Shown one piece after another: positions 18,325-28,796 of a stretch of DNA of 64,000 bases; position 1 is the stretch's first letter; each line of letters opens with the position of its first letter. The notes beneath the pieces are model-generated. The model searched no databases and was not told the origin of the DNA. It worked only from the letters and a program-made list of their open reading frames with translations. The position numbers were made by a program, and so were the translations under genes. The stretch lies in NCBI RefSeq assembly GCF_054482595.1, contig NZ_JBTHVH010000004.1; one strand, given 5' to 3'. Origin of the DNA: a plasmid.

Positions 18325-18491
18325 TTTTTCACCGCATTACCGCATTTAGGTTATTGCATTTAATCTATCGCATATAGGCTATGTCGTTCATTGTGTGCCG
18401 TCACGTTTAGATTATGGTGTCAGGGTATACCCTTATGCGATAACCATTTTTGTTAAAAATAACGCATCGAATAATTTATGAGGAAAACTAT
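18325..18491. promoter_or_regulatory. res-like divergent region between tnpR and tnpA
   Basis: The region is AT-rich, with the 9-bp inverted pair TATCGCATA (18366..18374) / TATGCGATA (18434..18442) and several further CGCAT-containing half-sites. Confidence 0.45.
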
Positions 18492-21479
18492 ATGGCAAGG
18501 AGGCAGATTCTTTCTCTGTCGGAAAGAGAATCATTACTGGCATTACCGGACGATGAGTTAACGCTGACCCGAATGGCCTATTTCAGTGAGCATGATCTGG
18601 CGCTTATCAGTGCTCACCGTAAACCCGCCAGCCGTTTTGGTTTTGCCGTCCTTCTTTGCTATCTGAAAAATGTCGGCTTTGCCCCGGATAAAAAAATCTC
18701 TCCCTCTGATGCGCTGCTGAAGCATATCGCCAGCAGGCTAAAGCTTACCGGGGATCTCTGGCCTGCTTACCTTTCCGGCCGGGATACGACCCTGCGTGAG
18801 CATTTAACCGAACTGTACCGCTATCTTGGCGTAAAGGCGTTCACCGGCAAAATACAGCAGGACTGTATTACGCACCTGTTATCGATGGCGACGCGCACCG
18901 ATAAAGGCATTCTCCTAGCCGAAGAGTTACTTGTCTATCTCCGGCAGAACAACGTGATAATCCCCGCGATTGATGTCGTGGAGCGTACCTGTGCTGAAGT
19001 CATGGCAGGCGGCGATAAAATCGTATTTCAGACCCTGAATGCCCCGTTAACTCCGGCTCACAGGGATGCCCTGGATCATTTACTTGAGTCATCAGATAAT
19101 CAGCCTTCCAGGCTGACATGGCTTCTGCAACCGCCGGGTAAAATCAATGGTAAGAACGTGCTGCAACATCTTGATCGGCTCAGCAGCATTGAATCGCTGG
19201 CATTACCTGAAGGTATAGATCGTACCATTCACCAGAACCGGTTGCTGAAACTGGCGCGGGAAGGCCGAAAGATGAGTAGCCGGGATTTGACCCGATTTTC
19301 AGCTGCCCGGCGTCATGCGATCCTGGTGTGCGTGCTGGAAGAAGCCAGAGCCACACTGACAGACGAAGTGATTGAGCTGCATGAGCGAATGCTGAATAGT
19401 CTTTTCAGCAAAGCCAAACGAACACAGGCTGAGCGCCTTCAGCAGACCGGAAAGCTGATCCAGTCAAAACTGAGGCAGTACATCGATGTCGGTCAGGCGC
19501 TGTCTGATGCCCGTGATTCCGGTGGCGATCCCTGGCTCGCAATAGAAAACATACTCCCATGGGCTGAATTTGTCGCCAGTCTGGATGAAACACGCCATCT
19601 CGCCAGAAAAAATAATTTTGACCCGCTGCATATTATTACCGAGAAATACAGCACATTACGGAAATATGCCCCACGCATGTTGTCCGCTTTACAGTTAGTC
19701 GCAACCCCGGCAGCGCAACCTCTGGCTGATGCACTGGTTGTGATCAAGGATATGTACCGGAAGCAGTCACGTAAAGTTCCGGCGGCAGCGCCGCTTGAGT
19801 TTGTCCCTGAAAGCTGGCGCAAGGTGGTGATTACACCTGTGGGTATTGACCGGCAGTACTATGAGTTTTGTGCACTCAGCGAGCTTAAGGGGGCGTTGCG
19901 CTCCGGGGATATCTGGGTTAAAGGCTCGCGCCGCTACAAAAATTTTGATGATTACCTCATACCCGAGAAGGACTTTGACAAACTCACACCGGCACTGCCA
20001 CTGCCCGTATCTGCTGATTATCATGAGTACATTACCAGCCGTATGACCCTGCTTCAGTCCAGACTTGAAGAGGTCAATGCCATGGCTGCCCTTGGTGAAC
20101 TGCCCGATGTGGAAATATCCGACAGGGGCGTAAAAGTCTCTCCGCTGGATAACTGCGTTCCGGCGCAGGTTTCACCGCTGGCAGAGCTGGTTTACAGCAT
20201 GCTACCGCGACCTAAAATCACGGAAATTCTCGATGAGGTAAACAGCTGGACGACGTTTACCCGACATTTTTCGCATATAAAAAATGACATTACCCGTCCC
20301 GATACCCGCTTGCTCCTCACCACCATTCTTGCGGATGGCATCAATCTTGGCCTGACCAAAATGGCAGAAGCCTGCCCCGGGAGCACCAAATCATCACTCG
20401 AAGATATTCAGGCATGGTACATCCGTGACGAAACCTATTCAGCCGCTCTTGCAGAGCTGGTAAATGCGCAGGGGAAAAGACCGTTGGCGGCATTTTGGGG
20501 AGACGGAACAACGTCATCATCAGATGGACAAAATTTCAGAACCGGCAGCTCAGGCCGCTACGCAGGGCAGGTTAACCCGAAATATGGGCAAGAGCCTGGA
20601 CGTCAGTTTTATACCCATATTTCGGATCAATACAGCCCGTTTTACACCTGCATAATCAGTCGGGTCAGGGATTCAACCCATGTTCTCGATGGCTTGCTGT
20701 ACCACGAAAGCGACCTGGAAATCAGGGAACATTACACCGATACCGCTGGTTTCACCGATCATGTCTTTGCCCTGATGCATCTGTTGGGATTTGCGTTCTG
20801 TCCGCGAATCAGGGATCTCCACGACAAAAAACTGTTTATCAAAGGGAAAGCAGAGAAATACCCGGCGCTTCAGTCACTGATATCAACGACCAGCCTGAAT
20901 CTGAAAGAGATCGAAATCCACTGGCGTGAAGTGCTGCGTCTGGCAACCTCGATAAAGCAGGGAACCGTGACGGCATCCCTGATGCTGAAAAAGCTTGCCA
21001 GCTATCCCAAGCAAAACGGACTTGCCAAAGCACTGAGAGAAATTGGCCGCATTGAGCGAACCCTGTTTATGCTCGACTGGTTCCGCGACCCGGCTCTGCG
21101 TCGGCGGGTACAGGCGGGGCTGAATAAAGGCGAAGCCCGTAACGCGCTGGCGCGTGCGGTATTTATGCACCGACTGGGAGAAATCAGGGACAGAAAACCG
21201 GAAAATCAGAGCTATCGCGCCAGTGGACTGACGCTGCTGACGGCTGCCATATCCCTGTGGAATACCGTCTATATGGAAAGAGCGGTCGATGCCCTGAAGC
21301 GTAAAGGGGTGAAGATCAACGAGCAACTGCTGTCGCATTTGTCGCCGTTGGGCTGGGAACACATCAATCTGACAGGTGATTATATCTGGAAAAGCAACCG
21401 GATACCGGCTTCTGGTAAGTTTCGTCGGCTAAGACCAGCTAAAGTCGAAAGGTCAAAAAACAGCCTTAACGTACAATAA
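18492..21479 (+). CDS. tnpA: Tn3-family transposase, full length (995 aa)
   Basis: From [19 protein letters not shown] onward it aligns over its whole length with the Tn21-type TnpA at 59496..62447. The stop lies inside the terminal IR. Confidence 0.9.
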   Translation: MARRQILSLSERESLLALPDDELTLTRMAYFSEHDLALISAHRKPASRFGFAVLLCYLKNVGFAPDKKISPSDALLKHIASRLKLTGDLWPAYLSGRDTTLREHLTELYRYLGVKAFTGKIQQDCITHLLSMATRTDKGILLAEELLVYLRQNNVIIPAIDVVERTCAEVMAGGDKIVFQTLNAPLTPAHRDALDHLLESSDNQPSRLTWLLQPPGKINGKNVLQHLDRLSSIESLALPEGIDRTIHQNRLLKLAREGRKMSSRDLTRFSAARRHAILVCVLEEARATLTDEVIELHERMLNSLFSKAKRTQAERLQQTGKLIQSKLRQYIDVGQALSDARDSGGDPWLAIENILPWAEFVASLDETRHLARKNNFDPLHIITEKYSTLRKYAPRMLSALQLVATPAAQPLADALVVIKDMYRKQSRKVPAAAPLEFVPESWRKVVITPVGIDRQYYEFCALSELKGALRSGDIWVKGSRRYKNFDDYLIPEKDFDKLTPALPLPVSADYHEYITSRMTLLQSRLEEVNAMAALGELPDVEISDRGVKVSPLDNCVPAQVSPLAELVYSMLPRPKITEILDEVNSWTTFTRHFSHIKNDITRPDTRLLLTTILADGINLGLTKMAEACPGSTKSSLEDIQAWYIRDETYSAALAELVNAQGKRPLAAFWGDGTTSSSDGQNFRTGSSGRYAGQVNPKYGQEPGRQFYTHISDQYSPFYTCIISRVRDSTHVLDGLLYHESDLEIREHYTDTAGFTDHVFALMHLLGFAFCPRIRDLHDKKLFIKGKAEKYPALQSLISTTSLNLKEIEIHWREVLRLATSIKQGTVTASLMLKKLASYPKQNGLAKALREIGRIERTLFMLDWFRDPALRRRVQAGLNKGEARNALARAVFMHRLGEIRDRKPENQSYRASGLTLLTAAISLWNTVYMERAVDALKRKGVKINEQLLSHLSPLGWEHINLTGDYIWKSNRIPASGKFRRLRPAKVERSKNSLNVQ

Positions 21480-22126: not shown

Positions 22127-22768
22127 TGAAGCCTCGTCTCAGCGATAACGCTTGAAATAGCCCGCTTTGGTCATCATGAAATTAGCCATCTGACTGGCGA
22201 TTTGATTGTATCTTACTCATAGTGCCCTACCTATAGGTTAAAAAGGGGCATTTTCGCTTTATAGCGTGTTCAGCAGCATCAATCCTCCCAAGAAAGGCTG
22301 GCTTATTAAGCCGGTCCATCATTTTCTGTATATCTCTCATCAATTTTTATATCCGCCCTGGAGTGCACCGTTCAAGCACACCGATTAGGCAGATAGTCAC
22401 TAGTTAACTCTTTACTAGTGACTAAATTCCATTGATATACGTGACAACGTCACGTCATGAAAGCTTTTAAATGCCTATTTTTCATACAATGGGATTTAAT
22501 TAGGAGTAAATCCCATAGGCTTACATAAGGATGACAATTAAAAGCGTTAAATATCAACCAGATAGAATGATTACCCCCAATTAATGGGCTCATCACATTA
22601 TTTCACTGGCTGGGGTTATTGCTGGCATATCTGAAAGTGCTAATATGTTAGTCATTAGTAATTAGTAAAGCCTTTACTAAACGCGTTTCTACGTAAATTC
22701 TATAGGTTTTATAGTGTCCTACCTTTGCTCAAATCAAAATGTTCTGACATACCAAAATGGAGTGTAAA

Positions 22769-23587
22769 ATGACTCAAAACCAGGGTTCTGAGCCAGTACC
22801 GGCGAGCCGGACAGGGCAGCTCATCAGCGCCCGGGATATGGCCATGCAGAAATTCGAAGAAGGGATGCGGTTAATCTCGGAAGCGTCGGAACTGTGCGGT
22901 CTCTCTCTCTTCACCAGCAGAATTATGCAGCCCAACGCATTTGGTCTTCCGTCGTCACTGGATCGCACCATCGAGGAGGGGCGTAAGGAAATTGACCGTA
23001 AAACGTGGAAAAGGCTCTTTGAAGAAACAGGTATGGACCGGTACTGGAACCATAAGCAAAAAGAAGCCTTTAACGAATCCCTTCGTACGGATCCGCCCGT
23101 CGCTTCCCTGGAGATTGTTAAGGGAACATTACAGCATGCACTGGCTAACAGACGAGACACCCTTGCAGAAGGTTTCGTTGATGTTCTCAACAAGCTTGAC
23201 CGAAGTTTCAAAAGCAATGCCAGGCAATATACAATGCCAAAAAAGCTTGTTCTTCGGGGGATTTTTCCTGGTGTGAACGTGCTGAGGTACAACGGTTTCT
23301 CGCAGGACAATCACTTTTGTTTACGCGACTTTGAGAATATTGTATGCATCTGTTCTGATACTCCAACACCTGCAACCGGCGGTGGGCTGAGTATGGTCGA
23401 CAGGCTGACGGCCATGAGAAATACAGAATTCACAGGCGAGGTCAGTGATGAGAATGGCTGGCGGTGTCGCCTGTTTGAGAATGGAAACGTTCATATTTGC
23501 ATCGACAGTATCTCGCTTCTGAATGCTCTGAACGATCTTATCAGCATATATTTTGCAAACCAGCTTCCGGCCGCAGGAAAAAAATGA
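22769..23587 (+). CDS. DUF4942-domain protein, stand-alone (no methyltransferase domain)
   Basis: Segments …WKRLFEETGMDRYWNHKQKEAFNESLRTDPP…FVDVLNKLDRSFKSN… and …LFENGNVHICI…LNALNDLISIYF resemble the DUF4942 module found N-terminal to plasmid/ICE N6-methylases. The start is taken at MTQNQ after a GGAG; an alternative start lies at 22757. Confidence 0.55.
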   Translation: MTQNQGSEPVPASRTGQLISARDMAMQKFEEGMRLISEASELCGLSLFTSRIMQPNAFGLPSSLDRTIEEGRKEIDRKTWKRLFEETGMDRYWNHKQKEAFNESLRTDPPVASLEIVKGTLQHALANRRDTLAEGFVDVLNKLDRSFKSNARQYTMPKKLVLRGIFPGVNVLRYNGFSQDNHFCLRDFENIVCICSDTPTPATGGGLSMVDRLTAMRNTEFTGEVSDENGWRCRLFENGNVHICIDSISLLNALNDLISIYFANQLPAAGKK

Positions 23588-24789
23588 TGATTGAAAATGA
23601 TAAAGAAAAAAGCCTGAACGATGCTACCCCGCCAGAGGTGCAGAATGACATCCGCAGCGAATCCACTGAAAAATCAAAGGAAATGGGTCGTTCAAGGTAC
23701 TCATCTATCGCGATGATCGATTACTTCAATGCAATCGAACGTCTGTGCAAAGAGAAAGAAATTAACCCGGAAAATATCGATCTGAGCTTCAAAGTTCACT
23801 GGCTCAGAAACGCTGTTGGCGGCTCGTTTGCAAGGTCACAGGAGATGTTCGCGGAGTACCAGAAGTATGTTAAAGAGGTTCCTGAAGAGGCCCGTTACCT
23901 GGATATACCCGATGAGGTAAAGGTTGCACTCGGCGATATTATCTCGTACATCACCTGGCACTACCGTAGAAGCTATACCGCAATACAGAATGATAGTGTT
24001 AAAAAAGCTGAAGCACGTAGCATGCAGCTGGAGGAGGAGGTAACGCAGCTGTTACAGCGGCTTGAGCAAAGCGCTACCGATATGGATGAGCTGAAACTTG
24101 AGAATCAGGCACTACAGGGTCGATTAGAGATCCGGGACAGTACCGTCAAGGAGTTAGAAACAAGGCTGAATGTTGCCGAAGCAGAACTCGAAACCTGCCA
24201 TCACCAGTTAGATAGCACACGGCATGAATTGAGCCTCGCACAGCAGTCAAATGACTCACTCTCCCAGCAACTGGCTGAACGTAAAACAGAGATCGCTGGT
24301 CACCTTGAATATCAAAAAAAGCTGAACGAAGAGATCAACACGCAGCGTTCTGATAACGCCGGTCTTTCCAGACAATGCGACCAGTTAAGTCAGACTGTGT
24401 CAGATACAAAGGCAGAGAGGGACAGGTTTGAACAGGAATTGATTGCTGCACAGAACCTTTGTACTGAGCTGAAAAGTGCACTGTCCGGGAAAGAGGGTGA
24501 CCTGGTGGCGGTGAATGCCGAGCTTACTGAACTCCATAAACTAAACGAGTCGCTGAGCGCCGACCTGAATAAAGTAACTTTGGTCAGCCAGGGCTATGAA
24601 GCGGAAGTGGCTGAACAAAGCAATGAACTCAAAACGCTCCAGGCCAAAGTAATGAAGCTGGAAGCTACCCTGGAGGCGGAGAAAACAATCTCAGAATCCC
24701 TAAAAGGCACCATTGATACATTAACTGGTGCAATGGCAGGGGGAGGTACTGGAAAGTCAAAACAGCCGCGTAGCAGAAAAACATCATGA
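23584..24789 (+). CDS. KfrA-like protein: N-terminal DNA-binding-like domain plus long coiled coil
   Basis: The ATGA start/stop overlap with the upstream gene suggests translational coupling. The N-terminus (…AIERLCKEKEINPENIDLSFKVHWLRNAVGGSFARSQEMFAEYQ) resembles KfrA_N. About 250 aa of heptad-rich Q/E/L sequence follow. Confidence 0.5.
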   Translation: MMIENDKEKSLNDATPPEVQNDIRSESTEKSKEMGRSRYSSIAMIDYFNAIERLCKEKEINPENIDLSFKVHWLRNAVGGSFARSQEMFAEYQKYVKEVPEEARYLDIPDEVKVALGDIISYITWHYRRSYTAIQNDSVKKAEARSMQLEEEVTQLLQRLEQSATDMDELKLENQALQGRLEIRDSTVKELETRLNVAEAELETCHHQLDSTRHELSLAQQSNDSLSQQLAERKTEIAGHLEYQKKLNEEINTQRSDNAGLSRQCDQLSQTVSDTKAERDRFEQELIAAQNLCTELKSALSGKEGDLVAVNAELTELHKLNESLSADLNKVTLVSQGYEAEVAEQSNELKTLQAKVMKLEATLEAEKTISESLKGTIDTLTGAMAGGGTGKSKQPRSRKTS

Positions 24790-24842
24790 TAAATGAAGCC
24801 AGGTTGATACACTTCTCTGCATCCCCTGGCACATAAGAACTT

Positions 24843-24867
24843 CTGCGGACATTCAGCCCGTCCGCAG
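24843..24867. terminator. Hairpin between convergent genes
   Basis: CTGCGGAC-attcagccc-GTCCGCAG followed by a T-run. It overlaps the stop of the 67-aa ORF. Confidence 0.5.
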
Positions 24868-25056
24868 GAGTTTTCGTCCTTCAGTCAACAAATGCACTAC
24901 CTTTTTTGAGTCTCCACTTTCCAGAGCAGAAAACACGTTACCGATTCTACCAACAGCTTGTATCTGAGTGATAACCCCAGTCTTGTAATCATCTAGGATC
25001 CCTGACAGGAAAGCGTTCAGTTTTGTCTGTTCGCTTAGCGAAAGCATGTAGGACAT
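24853..25056 (-). CDS. Hypothetical small protein (67 aa), last gene of the dcm-led cassette
   Basis: The ORF starts 12 bp after the DUF1173 stop. No motif was recognised. Confidence 0.45.
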   Translation of the reverse strand: MSYMLSLSEQTKLNAFLSGILDDYKTGVITQIQAVGRIGNVFSALESGDSKKVVHLLTEGRKLLRTG

Positions 25057-25068
25057 TTTTTCTCCATT

Positions 25069-26388
25069 TTAAGCAGGTGTGTCAGTTGAAAGAGGTTTGC
25101 GTGATTCTGGAAAATGAGGCAGCACCATAGTTTCAGATGCTGTGGTCGCATCCCAGTGCCACCATCCATAAGGCCCATATTCACGGTTGTAATAATCTTT
25201 TTTGAGTTGCTTTCGGGCCAGATAAGCAGGAGTGGCCATACCAAATACTTCCATCGGGAACGGCTTATCGCTTTTTGTGTCGAGCAGGTAGAAGTCAGGG
25301 AACACCTCACTAATACTCGCATCATAACGCATGGGCTTAACGTACTGCCGGTGCTCTGCATCCAGCTTTTCTGCAACAACCGCCTCATAGGAGGAGTCCA
25401 GAGGTATCCAGTTCTCGCTAACGTGCATCAGCACAATTTGATGAGCTCTTACAGAAGGGCCTCTGCCGGTTACCGCAGCTGGTGACGTCAACGCAAAGAC
25501 AACTATTTTCGCCCCGGATTTCCATGCTGCGTACTCCGATGAAAATCGTTTCTTTACGCTATCCCAATGGACTTCTGAATTGAAAAAAATCAGCGGTAGC
25601 CCCCCAAAATTCCGCAGGGGTAAAAATTTAAGTGGCTTCTCATGCTTTTCAGCATCGTAGCGAGGTAAAACTGACAGGAGCATGAGACGTTTATCACTCA
25701 TCGCCTGTGATGAAAGACGCTGAATTTGCGACTGAGCGACAGGTTGTTTCGGGTCAGGTACACCAATGAATAAATGGTCACCTATGCAGGCTCTGCCGGT
25801 ACGAATTTGTTTAGCGGTTTCAAGCAGACGATACCGTACCAGTGAATCGTTACGTTTCCCTGCCATTTTCGGGTACCAGACATTCAGACCAGACTCTGTC
25901 CACAAAAGACTAAGCAAGCCCAGGAGGGTCATTGAGGCCTGACCTCCTTCTGGTCGCTGAACATGGGGCAGGGGAGGCACTTCTGATTTTTCAGGAGGAT
26001 CTTTCTCTGTCATACCGATACCGAGCCTTACAGCCATATCACCTTCGGTTGTAATCCGGACCACACCACTCGCATATCCTTTCAGGCCGGTATGCCGGGC
26101 ATCAAGGGAGAAGAATACACAGGAAGGATCATGCTCAATGCCCGTGTTAGCGGCTTTGACGAGAATAAAGGCATCACCGTTCGGTAAAGCACGAACATAA
26201 AGTCGCTTTTCTCCTTTTCCACGACATCCGCAGGTGATGACTGATTTTTGACCTGAGGTGTGGTGTGCCTTTTTAAGAGCCGACTGCCACCCTTTAGCAA
26301 ACTCATCCTGCGTTTGAAAGTCAGGTGAATACCTTTTGACGTTTGGATCGTCGTCGTAAGCAATCATCACTGCGAATTTTTGGCTCAT
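25069..26388 (-). CDS. DUF1173-family protein (439 aa)
   Basis: The family assignment rests on three blocks recalled from DUF1173 proteins of plasmids and ICEs: VITCGCRGKGEKRLYVRA, LLGLLSLLWTESGLNVWYPKMAGKRNDSLVRYRLL and SENWIPLDS. Confidence 0.6.
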   Translation of the reverse strand: MSQKFAVMIAYDDDPNVKRYSPDFQTQDEFAKGWQSALKKAHHTSGQKSVITCGCRGKGEKRLYVRALPNGDAFILVKAANTGIEHDPSCVFFSLDARHTGLKGYASGVVRITTEGDMAVRLGIGMTEKDPPEKSEVPPLPHVQRPEGGQASMTLLGLLSLLWTESGLNVWYPKMAGKRNDSLVRYRLLETAKQIRTGRACIGDHLFIGVPDPKQPVAQSQIQRLSSQAMSDKRLMLLSVLPRYDAEKHEKPLKFLPLRNFGGLPLIFFNSEVHWDSVKKRFSSEYAAWKSGAKIVVFALTSPAAVTGRGPSVRAHQIVLMHVSENWIPLDSSYEAVVAEKLDAEHRQYVKPMRYDASISEVFPDFYLLDTKSDKPFPMEVFGMATPAYLARKQLKKDYYNREYGPYGWWHWDATTASETMVLPHFPESRKPLSTDTPA

Positions 26389-26410
26389 AGTAGTCTCCTA
26401 AACAGGAAGT

Positions 26411-26578
26411 TTAATATCCCAACCAGAGCAACACTTCCTGAGCGTCATACTGTTCCTTTACGCCCATGTCGCTAAAGAATTCTTCGAAATCTGTTTCGGG
26501 AACGCAATGCCTGGACAGTTCTTGTAATGCTCGTTCTTTAGATACCGTCTCACCTTCAGCTGATTCGAAATACGTCAT
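26411..26578 (-). CDS. Small acidic protein (55 aa), not in the supplied ORF track
   Basis: My translation gives MTYFESAEGETVSKERALQELSRHCVPETDFEEFFSDMGVKEQYDAQEVLLWLGY*. A GAGG lies 6 nt upstream, and the ORF sits between dcm and the DUF1173 gene. Confidence 0.5.
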   Translation of the reverse strand: MTYFESAEGETVSKERALQELSRHCVPETDFEEFFSDMGVKEQYDAQEVLLWLGY

Positions 26579-26638
26579 GGTTGACCTCTGACATTATTAC
26601 AACAATCTTAAGCATTTAAATTGATGAAGGAGCTCAGG

Positions 26639-28066
26639 TCAGCTGACTTCGTCGTAAAACTGCCGCAAGCGCTGGGAGGCTGCAAATTCAATTCGTGACT
26701 TCAGCAGTTTGGCGACGGCCGCAAAGACATCAACGACCACGGAGTTCCCAAACTGTCTGTAAGCCTGTGTATTGGACACAGGGATACGGAAAACACTTTC
26801 CCCGGGTTTATCGAAGCCCATTAGCCTGCTGCATTCACGTGGCGTTAGCATGCGTGGCCGACGGTCCATGTTGTATGTGTTATGGAAATCAGTTTCTCCC
26901 AGTTCATGAGACCAGCCCCGATCAATAAGAATTTCAGATCCGTCTTTCATATAGCGGCTTGAGAGGGTTATGGTGACACTATTAACATTGGAAGGATCTA
27001 CTAGTCCAAAACCAAAACCATTGCCTTTTGCCGCATGTTTCTTTGCATAGTTGTATAAGTACTCCCAGAGTTTAGGGGAGAGGATGTATTTACTATCTAC
27101 GCTCGGATCCAGTAAATCTGAGAGAGAAGGGCGCTTGTCCGGATAAAAGTCTTTAATGTCTCTCAGAGTAAAACCGTCTTTCAGACGTAGGTCGCGGCGA
27201 AAACCAATAAGGACGATACGTTCACGGTGCTGGGGTCGGAAATGACGGCCATCGATGACTTTAGGATCATCCGCGCCCGTGCTTTCGCTGTTTGCGACGT
27301 CGTAGCCAAGCTCATCGAGCGTTTTCATGATGATGTTAAAGGTATTACCCTTATCGTGACTCTTCAGATTTTTTACGTTTTCCAGAACAAAAATTGCAGG
27401 TTGTTTTGCCCGGATGATCCTGGCCACATCAAAGAAGAGCGTACCCTGAGTGTCGCACTCGAAACCGTGTTTGCGACCCATAGAGTTCTTTTTACTGACA
27501 CCGGCGATGCTGAATGGCTGGCATGGAAATCCCGCAAGAAGAACATCATGATCCGGGATAGAGGCATCGATAAATTTGTATGCCTCGTCATCAGTAACCT
27601 CGGGCCGGTTGCTAAGAGTGATGTCACGGATGTCTGAATTGAAGCGGTGCTCGTTCTCATCGCAATACCAGTTCGCCCGGTAAGTACGGCTGGAATAAGT
27701 ATTCCATTCGCTCGTGAAAAGACATTTACCACCGATGGCATCAAATCCGCTTCGCAGTCCACCTATCCCTGCAAACAGATCGATAAAGCTAAAGTGCCTG
27801 TCCTCATAATCAGCAGGTCGTGAAGGTATTAAAGTCTGTAGATAGCGTCCATCTGCGATACTCAGCTCACAATGCTCAGGTATGCATGTAACCTGACGTT
27901 TAAGGGATGCACGGGACCAATTACTGCCATTTTCATCATTTAATACCTGAGCCAGATATTTCAGGTCATAAATGGTCGAAGCTGTTAACAAAGTTTTGTG
28001 GATCAGAGATGGTGTTTTATCCACATCATTCAGGTCTGTCTCAAGATCATGAGTGTAACGTTTCAT
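26639..28066 (-). CDS. dcm: DNA cytosine-5 methyltransferase, Dcm / M.EcoRII-like (predicted CCWGG)
   Basis: All C5-MTase motifs are present: [42 protein letters not shown] and GNSVVV. By eye it is collinear with E. coli Dcm, including the ~95-aa N-terminal extension. An alternative GTG start lies at 28108. Confidence 0.85.
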
Positions 28067-28277
28067 CCAAACTCTCTCAGGAATAATATCTTTGAGATAG
28101 ATTAACACGCTTAATTTGGATTATTTTTTGGTTCAGGTTCTAAATTTATTGTGATTATTCTGCCTTTAAGTTGCAAAAAGATTGGTTTTAAGCCCGCCCA
28201 TGAAATAATGACTTGTTAAAATACTGCCTGTAAATAGGCTTGTGGATACATGTCTGTACTCAACAAATCAAGGTGAA

Positions 28278-28796
28278 ATGATGTTTTTTTTAACAAAGTT
28301 ACTTTTGCCCATCATGATTGTTGTATTCCCAGTGGCGTCCTGGGGGAACTCAACAACTTTTGAGGCAAAGGTGGTTAAGATTGTTGACGGTGACACCATA
28401 ACTGCGTTGGATGCTCAAAACACAACCATCAAAATACGGATGTATGGTATAGACGCTCCTGAATCTAAACAGGCTTTTGGCCAAAAAGCAAAACAGGCCT
28501 TAACCACAGCTATAGCAACTAAAATCGTTACCGTGATAGACCATGGTACGGATATCTATGGCCGTATGTTAGGTACCATCTGGTTAGATGGATATGATAT
28601 CAATGCCTCTATGGTGGACAGTGGATATGCGTGGGTTTATCGGTTCGAAGATAACGCCATTGTCCCTGGCTATATCAAATATGAATCCGCAGCACAAAAG
28701 GAGGCAAAAGGGTTATGGGCAGACACCAACCCTGTCCCACCATGGCAGTGGAGACAGGCAAACGAAAAGCCCAGAAAGGTGAAAGAGAAGAAATAA
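28278..28796 (+). CDS. nuc: Staphylococcal-nuclease-like (thermonuclease) exported endonuclease
   Basis: It has a signal peptide (MMFFLTKLLLPIMIVVFPVASW) and an SNase core (VVKIVDGDTI…IRMYGIDAPE…YGRMLG…GYAW). An alternative start lies at 28242. Confidence 0.8.
   Translation: MMFFLTKLLLPIMIVVFPVASWGNSTTFEAKVVKIVDGDTITALDAQNTTIKIRMYGIDAPESKQAFGQKAKQALTTAIATKIVTVIDHGTDIYGRMLGTIWLDGYDINASMVDSGYAWVYRFEDNAIVPGYIKYESAAQKEAKGLWADTNPVPPWQWRQANEKPRKVKEKK

What the first reader, a model, noticed from the sequence alone, without database searches (positions are those of the whole stretch)
24853..28108. Dcm/EcoRII-type C5 methyltransferase without Vsr or a cognate endonuclease, heading a tight four-gene cassette with a DUF1173 protein
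The methylase (26639..28066) is collinear with E. coli Dcm / M.EcoRII, including the N-terminal extension, so CCWGG specificity is the obvious prediction. In E. coli, dcm overlaps vsr; in EcoRII, the endonuclease is adjacent. Neither is present here.

Instead, the gene is followed on the same strand, with short gaps (about 60, 22 and 12 bp), by three ORFs:
- a 55-aa acidic ORF missed by the ORF track
- a 439-aa DUF1173 protein
- a 67-aa ORF

The DUF1173 protein has an N-terminal Cys cluster (TCGCRGKG…H..C). Its C-terminal segment (RYDASISEVFPDFYLLDTKSDKPFPMEVFG) looks to me like a degenerate PD-(D/E)xK-type nuclease core. A methylase co-transcribed with a putative nuclease of unknown function could be an unrecognised modification-linked system, either restriction-like or anti-restriction.
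Basis: partly seen in the sequence, partly recalled or inferred. Interest (0 to 1): 0.7.

Follow-up and report, generated by a model that had tools for sequence, protein, structure and literature searches.

The report
Orphan Dcm methylase operon, IncHI2 plasmid
This is a conserved backbone operon of IncHI2 resistance plasmids in which an orphan Dcm/EcoRII-type cytosine methylase (most likely shielding the plasmid from EcoRII-type restriction) was placed upstream of DUF1173, a widespread but uncharacterised nuclease-fold protein of conjugative elements that is not the methylase's partner.

Summary
In detail: four same-strand genes with 60, 22 and 12 bp gaps, all under purifying selection. The segment is IncHI2 plasmid backbone, identical in more than 1,100 sequenced plasmids, where the methylase is already labelled dcm.

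The methylase is 65% identical to E. coli Dcm without gaps. No Vsr or EcoRII endonuclease is present anywhere in the window. Complete EcoRII systems do sit on IncN and Klebsiella IncHI1B/FIB plasmids, and a plasmid-borne orphan dcm has been shown to give about 2,700-fold protection from EcoRII.

DUF1173 does have a nuclease fold, as published in 2010. Modelling adds a zinc-bearing OB-fold N-terminal domain and a conserved acidic/lysine residue set in 81% of family representatives.

The proposed methylase-nuclease system is not supported. Only 1 of 20 DUF1173 lineages has an adjacent C5 methylase. The sister Klebsiella lineage has DUF1173 alone, with its Dcm-type methylase about 120 kb away. 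Methylase-dead variants keep DUF1173 intact. Elsewhere the neighbours are conjugation, partition and establishment genes.

The acidic 55-aa ORF matches the first early gene of T7-like phages and is an anti-defence candidate. DUF1173's function remains unknown. Interest is modest.

The parts
26639..28066 (-). Orphan Dcm/EcoRII-family C5 DNA methyltransferase, 475 aa (the ORF is open up to a GTG at 28108). Motifs present: [19 protein letters not shown]. Predicted CCWGG specificity.
   Evidence: PF00145 E = 1.4e-74. NF007772 841.6 bits. PADLOC 'orphan methyltransferase' E = 4e-205. 65% identical to E. coli Dcm over 438 residues without gaps. 65-66% identical to the methylases of true EcoRII systems. 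RefSeq WP_000833382.1.
26411..26578 (-). orf55: a 55-aa acidic protein (pI 4.2, net charge about -9) ending in WLGY. It is found in every cassette that carries the methylase. It is homologous to the first early gene of T7-like podophages.
   Evidence: WP_000220758.1; pN/pS 0.17-0.41; phrog_25588, E = 1.8e-24; phage Nobby gp02 at 796-954.
25069..26388 (-). DUF1173 (PF06666) protein, 439 aa: a zinc-bearing OB-fold domain, a middle alpha/beta domain and a C-terminal PD-(D/E)XK-fold domain.
   Evidence: AF2 pLDDT 88.7, pTM 0.90; 2,523 clusters at 50% identity. RefSeq WP_000078514.1.
26014..26388 (-). DUF1173 residues about 1-125: an OB-fold-like beta-barrel carrying the invariant C53-x-C55 ... H86-x3-C90 zinc motif.
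25144..25416 (-). DUF1173 residues about 325-415: PD-(D/E)XK-fold nuclease-like domain with candidate active-site residues E335, K351, P364-D365, D370, E380 (E-V-F in place of E-x-K) and K396.
24853..25056 (-). orf67: a 67-aa basic protein (pI 9.2), the last gene of the unit. It is conserved only in cassettes whose DUF1173 is at least 80% identical.
   Evidence: 61-70% aa identity, pN/pS 0.16-0.27. Replaced by other ORFs in L008 and L010.
24843..24867 (-). GC-rich hairpin (9-bp stem) overlapping the orf67 stop codon. It is a candidate terminator between the cassette and the convergent coiled-coil gene.
   Evidence: This is a consensus scan only, and the T-tail is weak.
28205..28234 (-). Promoter-like site in the divergent SNase/methylase intergenic region.
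   Evidence: 9 of 12 matches. The number of such sites in the region is not above the shuffled expectation, so this is suggestive only.
26593..26620 (-). Promoter-like site (TTTAAA, 16-nt spacer, TG-AATAAT) in the 60-bp gap upstream of orf55. It could drive orf55, DUF1173 and orf67 independently of the methylase.
   Evidence: Consensus match only.
28242..28796 (+). Context: divergent SNase-type thermonuclease with a signal-peptide-like N-terminus. It neighbours DUF1173 in both the IncHI2-like and the Klebsiella lineages.
   Evidence: (PF00565, E = 4.6e-24).
22757..24789 (+). Context: convergent pair of a DUF4942 protein and a coiled-coil protein of about 400 aa. The pair is syntenic with the cassette throughout the IncHI2-like clade.
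   Evidence: DUF4942 hits phrog_38825, E = 2e-100.

Best explanation
**What the region is.** It is a conserved backbone transcription unit of IncHI2-type conjugative plasmids. It is a composite, not a dedicated methylase-nuclease system.

**1. The methylase.** The first gene is an orphan member of the Dcm/M.EcoRII family. It is inferred to methylate CCWGG on the plasmid and the host genome. This would pre-protect the plasmid from EcoRII-type restriction systems, which are carried by competing plasmids in the same hosts, and from their post-segregational killing.

**2. The 55-aa ORF.** The methylase and the acidic 55-aa gene behave as a two-gene module. They appear to have been inserted between the SNase gene and DUF1173. 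This is inferred from the sister lineage, which lacks both. The 55-aa protein is homologous to the first early gene of T7-like phages, so it is a candidate anti-defence or host-takeover factor.

**3. DUF1173.** It is an older, independent backbone gene of conjugative plasmids and ICEs. It combines a zinc-bearing OB-fold domain, which suggests single-stranded nucleic-acid binding, with a C-terminal PD-(D/E)XK nuclease-fold domain that in most members keeps a plausible catalytic residue set. My most likely reading is a DNA-processing or DNA-binding factor that serves plasmid transfer, establishment or maintenance. It is not the methylase's cognate endonuclease.

**Shown versus inferred.**
- Shown: gene identities, folds, residue conservation, phyletic and neighbourhood patterns, and the natural knock-outs.
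- Inferred: CCWGG specificity, the protective role, ssDNA binding, nuclease activity, and any role for orf55 or orf67.
For: **Plasmid identity**
- IncHI2A, MOBH, MPF_F. 1,133 records are at least 99% identical.

**Methylase**
-.
- No Vsr or EcoRII endonuclease in the window.
- True EcoRII pairs (EcoRII-N plus EcoRII-C) accompany 65-66%-identical methylases on IncN and Klebsiella IncFIB/IncHI1B plasmids.
- Experimental precedent: deleting a plasmid dcm raised EcoRII restriction about 2,700-fold (PMC11602122).
- Orphan methylases are enriched among plasmid establishment genes (PMC11541004).
- CCWGG is not avoided in the window: 148 observed against 116 ± 10.5 expected.

**DUF1173 is independent of the methylase**
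- 72 of 72 non-IncHI2 loci have no adjacent C5 methylase.
- Only 1 of 20 lineages at 60% identity has the link.
- In the Pfam census of 19 lineages, PF00145 has at most one member per batch. The neighbours are T4SS coupling protein, TrbI, VirB8, relaxases, ParA/ParB, Toprim/DUF7146, KfrB, SSB and integrases.
- The Klebsiella lineage has SNase directly next to DUF1173, and one such plasmid has its Dcm-type methylase about 120 kb away.
- Methylase-dead cassettes keep DUF1173 intact.

**DUF1173 architecture**
-, and PMC3045609.

**orf55**
-.
Against: - Within the IncHI2-like clade, the order methylase, orf55, DUF1173 has been kept with short gaps while synonymous sites saturated. DUF1173 identity falls to 53% across that clade. 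This is compatible with real functional coupling in that clade.
- However, the whole neighbourhood (SNase, orf326, coiled-coil gene, DUF4942) is equally syntenic.
- The natural methylase knock-outs are all in E. coli or Salmonella. These hosts normally carry chromosomal Dcm, so they do not exclude a CCWGG-directed nuclease.
- No experiment addresses this methylase, orf55 or DUF1173.
- The cassette's position relative to oriT was not determined.
Confidence: 0.62

Rival explanations
1. **Novel type II-like restriction-modification system.** DUF1173 is the endonuclease that cuts unmethylated CCWGG (or a related site), and the Dcm-type enzyme is its cognate methylase.
For: - Same strand and tight spacing.
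- Nuclease fold with conserved acidic and Lys residues.
- The linkage persisted through saturated synonymous divergence in the IncHI2-like clade.
- The methylase-dead variants are in hosts that usually have chromosomal Dcm, so they would remain protected.
Against: - 19 of 20 DUF1173 lineages have no adjacent C5 methylase yet keep the same conserved residue set. These include Pseudomonas, Pantoea, Betaproteobacteria and Rhizobiales.
- The sister Klebsiella lineage has DUF1173 alone. The Dcm-type methylase of that plasmid type is paired with a genuine EcoRII endonuclease elsewhere.
- In Photorhabdus the methylase has lost its catalytic core while DUF1173 stays intact at 82% identity.
- There is no sequence relationship to R.EcoRII.
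- The OB-fold domain points to single-stranded rather than duplex-site recognition.
Confidence: 0.07
2. **Vsr analogue.** DUF1173 takes the place of vsr downstream of dcm. It nicks T:G mismatches that arise from 5-methylcytosine deamination at CCWGG, offsetting the mutagenic cost of the plasmid methylase.
For: - Its position corresponds to vsr in the E. coli dcm-vsr operon.
Against: - No sequence similarity to Vsr: no Pfam Vsr hit, and Vsr tblastn against the window finds nothing at this locus.
- The conserved residues (E, K, PD, D, E, K) are of the classical PD-(D/E)XK type. Vsr uses an Asp/His set with its zinc site inside the nuclease domain (established knowledge), whereas here the zinc motif lies in the N-terminal domain.
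- Most family members have no C5 methylase nearby.
- E. coli hosts already encode Vsr.
Confidence: 0.06
3. **Integrated anti-defence/establishment operon.** All four genes cooperate during plasmid entry:
- the methylase modifies incoming DNA
- orf55 inhibits a host nuclease or restriction enzyme
- DUF1173 binds or processes the transferred single strand, or degrades a host or competitor nucleic acid

A sub-variant is that orf55 acts as a small acidic inhibitor (immunity or antitoxin-like) of the DUF1173 nuclease.
For: - One transcription unit, with a hairpin at its end.
- orf55 is acidic and homologous to the first early gene of T7-like phages, the position Ocr occupies in T7.
- DUF1173 has an OB fold typical of ssDNA binders. 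It sits among conjugation and establishment genes in other elements, including SSB, PsiA, ParB, Toprim and H-NS.
- Orphan methylases are typical leading-region genes.
Against: - orf55 and DUF1173 each occur without the other: phages have orf55 only, and 19 lineages have DUF1173 only. An obligatory inhibitor/nuclease pair is therefore unlikely.
- The cassette's position relative to oriT in IncHI2 is unknown here.
- There are no expression or phenotype data.
- The promoter predictions are not above chance.
Confidence: 0.2

Closest known systems
E. coli Dcm and M.EcoRII (C5 methyltransferases, CCWGG)
   Same: - 65-66% identity, collinear over about 440 residues including the N-terminal DNA_meth_N extension.
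- All catalytic motifs are present.
   Different: - No overlapping vsr, unlike the chromosomal dcm-vsr operon.
- No convergent R.EcoRII, unlike the IncN and Klebsiella IncHI1B/FIB plasmids.
- Followed instead by orf55, DUF1173 and orf67.
Plasmid-borne orphan dcm of pKAZ3 and leading-region orphan methyltransferases
   Same: - An orphan Dcm-type methylase on a large conjugative multidrug-resistance plasmid.
- The pKAZ3 dcm was shown to protect about 2,700-fold against EcoRII (PMC11602122).
- Orphan methylases are a prominent class of plasmid establishment genes (PMC11541004).
   Different: - No experimental data exist for the IncHI2 enzyme.
- Its position relative to oriT was not determined here.
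- Identity to the pKAZ3 gene was not measured.
DUF1173 / PF06666 as described by Laganeckas, Margelevicius and Venclovas, 2010
   Same: An N-terminal CxC...Hx3-5C zinc motif and a C-terminal domain related to PD-(D/E)XK nucleases (PMC3045609). Both are confirmed here.
   Different: - That paper reported no conserved active-site signature. In 177 representatives here, 81% keep E335, K351, D365, D370, E380 and K396, and the losses are correlated.
- The OB-fold assignment of the zinc domain and the conjugative-element context are additions.
Vsr and Vsr-like PD-(D/E)XK nucleases (I-Bth0305I, RAP domains), Hjc, VRR-NUC
   Different: - No detectable sequence homology.
- A different conserved residue set.
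- DUF1173 has an extra 320-residue N-terminal region with a Zn-OB domain.
- It is not generally linked to C5 methylases.
T7 gp0.3 Ocr-type early anti-restriction proteins (comparison for orf55 only)
   Same: - Small and strongly acidic.
- The homologue is the first rightward gene at the left end of T7-like podophage genomes.
   Different: - No sequence similarity to Ocr was shown.
- 55 aa against 117 aa for Ocr (from my own knowledge).
- Function untested. The resemblance is positional only.

Membership tests
Dcm/M.EcoRII-family C5 DNA methyltransferase | C5-methyltransferase catalytic core: AdoMet motif FxGxG, catalytic PCQ, ENV and GN motifs | tested here: met
   PF00145 E = 1.4e-74 over profile positions 1-322 of 324. 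The motifs [17 protein letters not shown] and FGNS are visible in the translation and the alignment.
Dcm/M.EcoRII-family C5 DNA methyltransferase | Full-length collinearity with Dcm, including the N-terminal extension and the target-recognition region | tested here: met
   NF007772 841.6 bits (cut-off 710), covering profile positions 14-468 of 472. PF18284 DNA_meth_N present. 65% identity over 438 aa with zero gaps to K-12 Dcm.
Dcm/M.EcoRII-family C5 DNA methyltransferase | Methylates the inner cytosine of CCWGG | not testable with these tools
   Predicted only, from ungapped 65% identity through the variable region. Needs bisulfite, EM-seq or nanopore 5mC data, or an EcoRII/BstNI digestion assay.
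Orphan (solitary) methyltransferase | No cognate restriction endonuclease and no Vsr next to it | tested here: met
   No EcoRII-N/EcoRII-C protein in the window (best tblastn E = 0.28). No Vsr (best E = 0.2). The flanking ORFs have no restriction-enzyme hits in Pfam or PADLOC.
Type II restriction-modification system with DUF1173 as the endonuclease | Endonuclease and methylase genes are co-inherited across lineages | tested here: not met
   An adjacent C5 methylase is found in 8 of 80 loci, which is 1 of 20 lineages. PF00145 has at most one member per batch in the census of the other 19 lineages. The two genes are about 120 kb apart on Klebsiella plasmid NZ_CP082938.1.
Type II restriction-modification system with DUF1173 as the endonuclease | The endonuclease cannot persist when the methylase is inactivated | tested here: inconclusive
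   The methylase is disrupted by IS1203, IS100, a 61-bp insertion or an internal deletion while DUF1173 stays intact. However, the E. coli and Salmonella hosts normally have chromosomal Dcm, and the Dcm status of the Photorhabdus host is unknown.
DUF1173 (PF06666) | Match to the family profile above the gathering score, with the CxC...Hx3-5C motif | tested here: met
   134.8 bits against a cut-off of 25. C53, C55, H86 and C90 are invariant in 177 representatives.
PD-(D/E)XK nuclease superfamily | Alpha-beta-beta-beta-alpha-beta core fold | tested here: met
PD-(D/E)XK nuclease superfamily | Canonical catalytic signature E ... PD ... (D/E)xK | tested here: inconclusive
   E335 (95%), P364-D365 (90% and 86%) and E380 (88%) are present. 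The Lys position of ExK is an aromatic residue (F382). K351 (99%) or K396 (86%) could substitute.
Vsr (very short patch repair endonuclease) | Sequence membership in the Vsr family, with the Vsr-type catalytic and zinc site inside the nuclease domain | tested here: not met
Plasmid leading-region anti-defence island | Located in the first-transferred DNA next to oriT and expressed early after transfer | not tested
   oriT and the relaxase were not mapped relative to the cassette. In this window the backbone island is flanked by resistance transposons. PMC9599605 places dcm beyond an MDR region that follows transfer region 1 and umuC.

The most novel reading that the evidence does not exclude
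DUF1173 defines a large, unstudied class of zinc-OB-fold nucleases that are core equipment of conjugative plasmids and ICEs. They act on the transferred single strand, or on host or competitor nucleic acid, during establishment.

In the IncHI2 clade this gene has been wired into one operon with two other parts: an orphan Dcm methylase and a homologue of a phage first-early gene (orf55). Together they would form a three-part restriction-evasion and establishment module.
Probability: 0.2. Interest if true: 0.6.

Novelty: new member of a known kind. Interest (0 to 1): 0.35.

Why it matters
**Clinical relevance**
- IncHI2 plasmids are major carriers of mcr-1, mcr-9 and multidrug resistance.
- Knowing that their backbone encodes an EcoRII-proof orphan methylase helps explain their host range.

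**The open question: DUF1173**
- It is present on about 4% of sequenced plasmids (2,918 of 72,556), including IncHI2 and Klebsiella IncHI1B/FIB plasmids, and on ICEs of many Proteobacteria.
- It has a confident Zn-OB plus nuclease-fold model.
- No experimental data were found.

**A cheap lead: orf55**
- Its link to phage early genes makes it an easy candidate to test for a new anti-defence protein.

None of this overturns current understanding. It mainly redirects the question from "a new R-M-like system" to "what does this conjugative-element nuclease do".

Tried and rejected
**Searches that gave nothing useful**
- A profile search of the DUF1173 alignment against PDB sequences gave only noise.
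- The search for related loci with the 35-sequence alignment failed because no stretch was conserved enough. It was repeated with a 14-sequence core alignment.
- Literature searches for DUF1173 and PF06666 returned only the 2010 fold paper and an incidental mention.
- In the IncHI2 papers, dcm is used only as a map landmark.

**Methods that needed adjusting**
- The first de novo neighbour clustering was polluted by shadow ORFs in high-GC loci. It was replaced by greedy non-overlapping ORFs and a batch Pfam census.

**Ideas tested and dropped**
- orf326 is not detectably related to the PLD-like neighbour in the Klebsiella lineage.
- DUF4942 has no solved relative by sequence.
- The orf55/DUF1173 toxin-antitoxin idea is unlikely, because each gene occurs widely without the other.
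- The Vsr-analogue and R-M readings were rejected on phyletic grounds.

**Not possible or not done**
- Model coordinates are not exposed, so the geometry of the candidate active site could not be checked.
- oriT mapping and an orf67 homologue search were not done.

Full report
**1. Observation**

- methylase, 26639..28066 (the frame stays open to a GTG at 28108)
- 55-aa ORF, 26411..26578
- 439-aa ORF, 25069..26388
- 67-aa ORF, 24853..25056

The gaps are 60, 22 and 12 bp. Megablast of 24700-28300 finds 1,210 plasmid records, 1,133 of them at least 99% identical, mostly 200-350-kb conjugative plasmids of Escherichia, Salmonella and Enterobacter. An intact example, pSTM6-275, is typed IncHI2A, MOBH, MPF_F. 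It annotates the methylase (WP_000833382.1), the 55-aa protein (WP_000220758.1) and a 'DUF1173 family protein' (WP_000078514.1). The segment is therefore IncHI2 backbone. In this window it forms a low-GC island of about 10 kb between resistance transposons.

**2. The methylase**

- It matches Pfam DNA_methylase (E = 1.4e-74) plus the DNA_meth_N extension.
- It scores 841.6 bits on NCBIfam NF007772, against a cut-off of 710.
- Its best PADLOC model is 'orphan methyltransferase'.
- It is 65% identical to E. coli K-12 Dcm over 438 residues without a single gap.

CCWGG specificity is a reasonable but untested prediction.

Neither partner of known Dcm-family genes is present. Vsr finds nothing in the 64-kb window (best E = 0.2). 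Nor does R.EcoRII (best E = 0.28).

Dcm-type methylases occur on 3,923 plasmids. Two sampled contexts, an IncN plasmid and a Klebsiella IncFIB/IncHI1B plasmid, both carry a convergent endonuclease of about 400 aa with EcoRII-N and EcoRII-C domains. Their methylases are 65-66% identical to the window enzyme. So complete EcoRII systems circulate on competing plasmids in the same hosts, and the IncHI2 gene is the orphan form.

There is direct precedent for what such an orphan does. Deleting a plasmid-borne dcm of pKAZ3 increased EcoRII restriction about 2,700-fold, and chromosomal Dcm protected every plasmid tested (PMC11602122). Orphan methylases are also a prominent class among plasmid establishment genes (PMC11541004). 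CCWGG is not avoided in the window: 148 sites against 116 ± 10.5 expected. That fits protection by modification rather than by site avoidance, although much of the window is transposon DNA. In the IncHI2 literature the gene is simply called dcm and used as a map landmark.

**3. DUF1173**

The protein matches PF06666 (134.8 bits). The only paper found that treats the family is Laganeckas et al. 2010. It described an N-terminal CxC...Hx3-5C zinc motif and a C-terminal domain related to PD-(D/E)XK nucleases 'lacking the conserved active site signature' (PMC3045609).

I extended it in three ways.

*Family size and conservation.*
- A profile search finds 2,523 clusters at 50% identity.
- In 177 full-length representatives C53, C55, H86 and C90 are essentially invariant.
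- The C-terminal block is also conserved: E335 (95%), K351 (99%), D365 (86%), D370 (98%), E380 (88%) and K396 (86%).
- 144 of 177 keep all six residues. The losses are correlated, with 17 lacking both D365 and E380. This is how a catalytic site behaves when a minority subclade has been inactivated.
- The signature is non-canonical. It reads PD ... E-V-F, with an aromatic residue where the Lys of ExK should be.

*C-terminal fold.*
- An AlphaFold2 model built from 35 homologues is confident (pLDDT 88.7, pTM 0.90).
- Foldseek against the PDB finds nothing.

*N-terminal fold.*
- A separate model of residues 1-325 (pLDDT 84.5) returns almost exclusively nucleic-acid-binding OB folds.
- The hits are Stn1/Ten1, RPA subunits, SSBs, aaRS anticodon-binding domains and the zinc-bearing N-domains of MCM and MCM10.

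**4. Is DUF1173 linked to the methylase?**

*Within the IncHI2-like clade.* Relatives with 53-82% DUF1173 identity keep this block:
- SNase on the opposite strand
- methylase, a 55-59-aa ORF and DUF1173 on the same strand
- the coiled-coil gene and DUF4942 on the opposite strand

*Outside that clade.*
- The 42%-identical Klebsiella lineage has SNase directly beside DUF1173, with PsiA and H-NS nearby and no methylase.
- The Pseudomonas ICE-type lineage has none either.
- A scan of one genome per species returned 80 loci. Only the 8 IncHI2-type loci have the methylase. The other 72 have no adjacent C5 methylase by BLAST or by motif, with one weak hit 6 kb away in L037.
- The loci fall into 20 lineages at 60% identity, so the link exists in 1 of 20.
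- A Pfam census of 292 neighbouring proteins from the other 19 lineages shows T4SS coupling proteins, TrbI, VirB8, TrbL, relaxases, ParA/ParB, Toprim/DUF7146, KfrB, SSB, integrases and Strawberry-notch-like helicases. PF00145 has at most one member per batch.
- On Klebsiella plasmid NZ_CP082938.1, DUF1173 and the Dcm-type methylase are about 120 kb apart.

The simplest history is that a methylase-orf55 module was inserted into the SNase/DUF1173 intergenic region in the ancestor of the IncHI2-like clade. L010 and L011 carry further insertions at the same spot.

**5. Natural knock-outs**

- Methylase disrupted, DUF1173 identical and intact: IS1203 at about 27,405, IS100 at about 27,851, or a 61-bp insertion at 27,565.
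- The reverse case: one plasmid has a 37-bp insertion in DUF1173 with the methylase intact.
- In Photorhabdus the methylase retains only residues 16-143 and 438-475, while orf55, DUF1173 and orf67 are intact.

The caveat is that E. coli and Salmonella normally have chromosomal Dcm. These cases therefore argue against dependence but do not prove independence.

**6. The small ORFs**

Both are real genes. Against diverged cassettes they keep their length, have no internal stops, and show pN/pS of 0.16-0.41 at saturated dS.

*orf55.*
- It is strongly acidic (pI 4.2, net charge about -9).
- It is confined to IncHI2-like elements among cellular sequences.
- It also matches phrog_25588 (E = 1.8e-24) and 35 phage genomes.
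- In Pectobacterium phage Nobby (Autographiviridae) the homologue is gp02 at 796-954, the first rightward gene. In Escherichia phage PGT2 it lies at 1699-1854.
- That is the early region, where T7 encodes Ocr. This makes orf55 an anti-defence or host-takeover candidate on positional grounds only.

*orf67.*
- It is basic (pI 9.2).
- It is conserved only in the closest cassettes.

*Transcription signals.*
- A GC-rich hairpin overlaps the orf67 stop codon.
- Promoter-like sites lie upstream of the methylase and in the gap before orf55.
- These scans are not above the shuffled expectation.

**7. Verdict**

The nuclease-fold call for DUF1173 is correct but was published in 2010.

Three additions came out of this work:
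- the Zn-OB architecture and the largely conserved residue set of DUF1173
- its identity as a backbone gene of conjugative elements
- the link between orf55 and phage early genes

DUF1173's actual function remains unknown.

Noticed in passing
window 26411..26578 (-); L098 (phage Nobby) 796-954: The acidic 55-aa ORF is homologous (54.5% identity, full length) to the first rightward early gene of T7-like Pectobacterium and Escherichia podophages (phrog_25588). That is the genomic position Ocr holds in T7, so it is a candidate anti-defence protein.
   Followed up: partly
window 28242..28796 (+); L003 7324-7818; L008 4560-5090; L010 2914-3387; L032, L034, L080: A signal-peptide-bearing SNase-type thermonuclease is the divergent neighbour of DUF1173 in both the IncHI2-like and the Klebsiella IncHI1B/FIB lineages. 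SNase homologues also lie within 10 kb in three unrelated lineages. This may be a real DUF1173-SNase association.
   Followed up: no
window 22757..24789 (+): A DUF4942 protein (strong hit to phrog_38825, E = 2e-100) and a coiled-coil protein of about 400 aa (weak SMC/LmuB/JetC-like hits) form a pair. The pair is conserved convergent to the cassette throughout the IncHI2-like clade. Its function is unknown.
   Followed up: partly
L014, L015, L016, L017 (IncHI2 plasmids MK461930, CP051359, OR782950, MT499884): The methylase gene is a recurrent insertion target in natural IncHI2 plasmids (IS1203, IS100 and a 61-bp insertion). One plasmid instead has a 37-bp insertion in DUF1173. One search lists further IS3, ISEc62 and ISCR1 insertions in this 3.6-kb segment that were not mapped.
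   Followed up: partly
L007 6137-6669 (Photorhabdus tasmaniensis contig): The methylase has lost about 294 internal codons (its catalytic core). orf55, DUF1173 and orf67 stay intact, and a group II intron reverse transcriptase lies nearby.
   Followed up: partly
L057/L080 5361-9950 (-) and related Rhizobiales loci: DUF1173 is divergently adjacent to a 1,529-aa Strawberry-notch-like helicase (AAA_34 plus Helicase_C_4). The N-terminal 490 residues of that protein give a weak methyltransferase (MTS) hit. Toprim_3/DUF7146 and YspA/SLOG genes are nearby.
   Followed up: partly
plasmid hits H131-H137 (Klebsiella pneumoniae plasmids): In a group of Klebsiella plasmids the DUF1173 gene is split into two annotated pieces covering only 69% of the query. 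This suggests pseudogenisation in that sublineage.
   Followed up: no
window 18450..21479 (+) and flanks 1-22000, 33000-64000: The backbone island is embedded among resistance transposons: a Tn3-family/TnAs3 transposase, cmlA, tet(A) and integron-type high-GC blocks. This explains the mosaic GC profile.
   Followed up: no
window, whole: CCWGG sites are slightly over-represented rather than avoided: 148 observed against 116 ± 10.5 expected, with none of 100 shuffles reaching 148.
   Followed up: no
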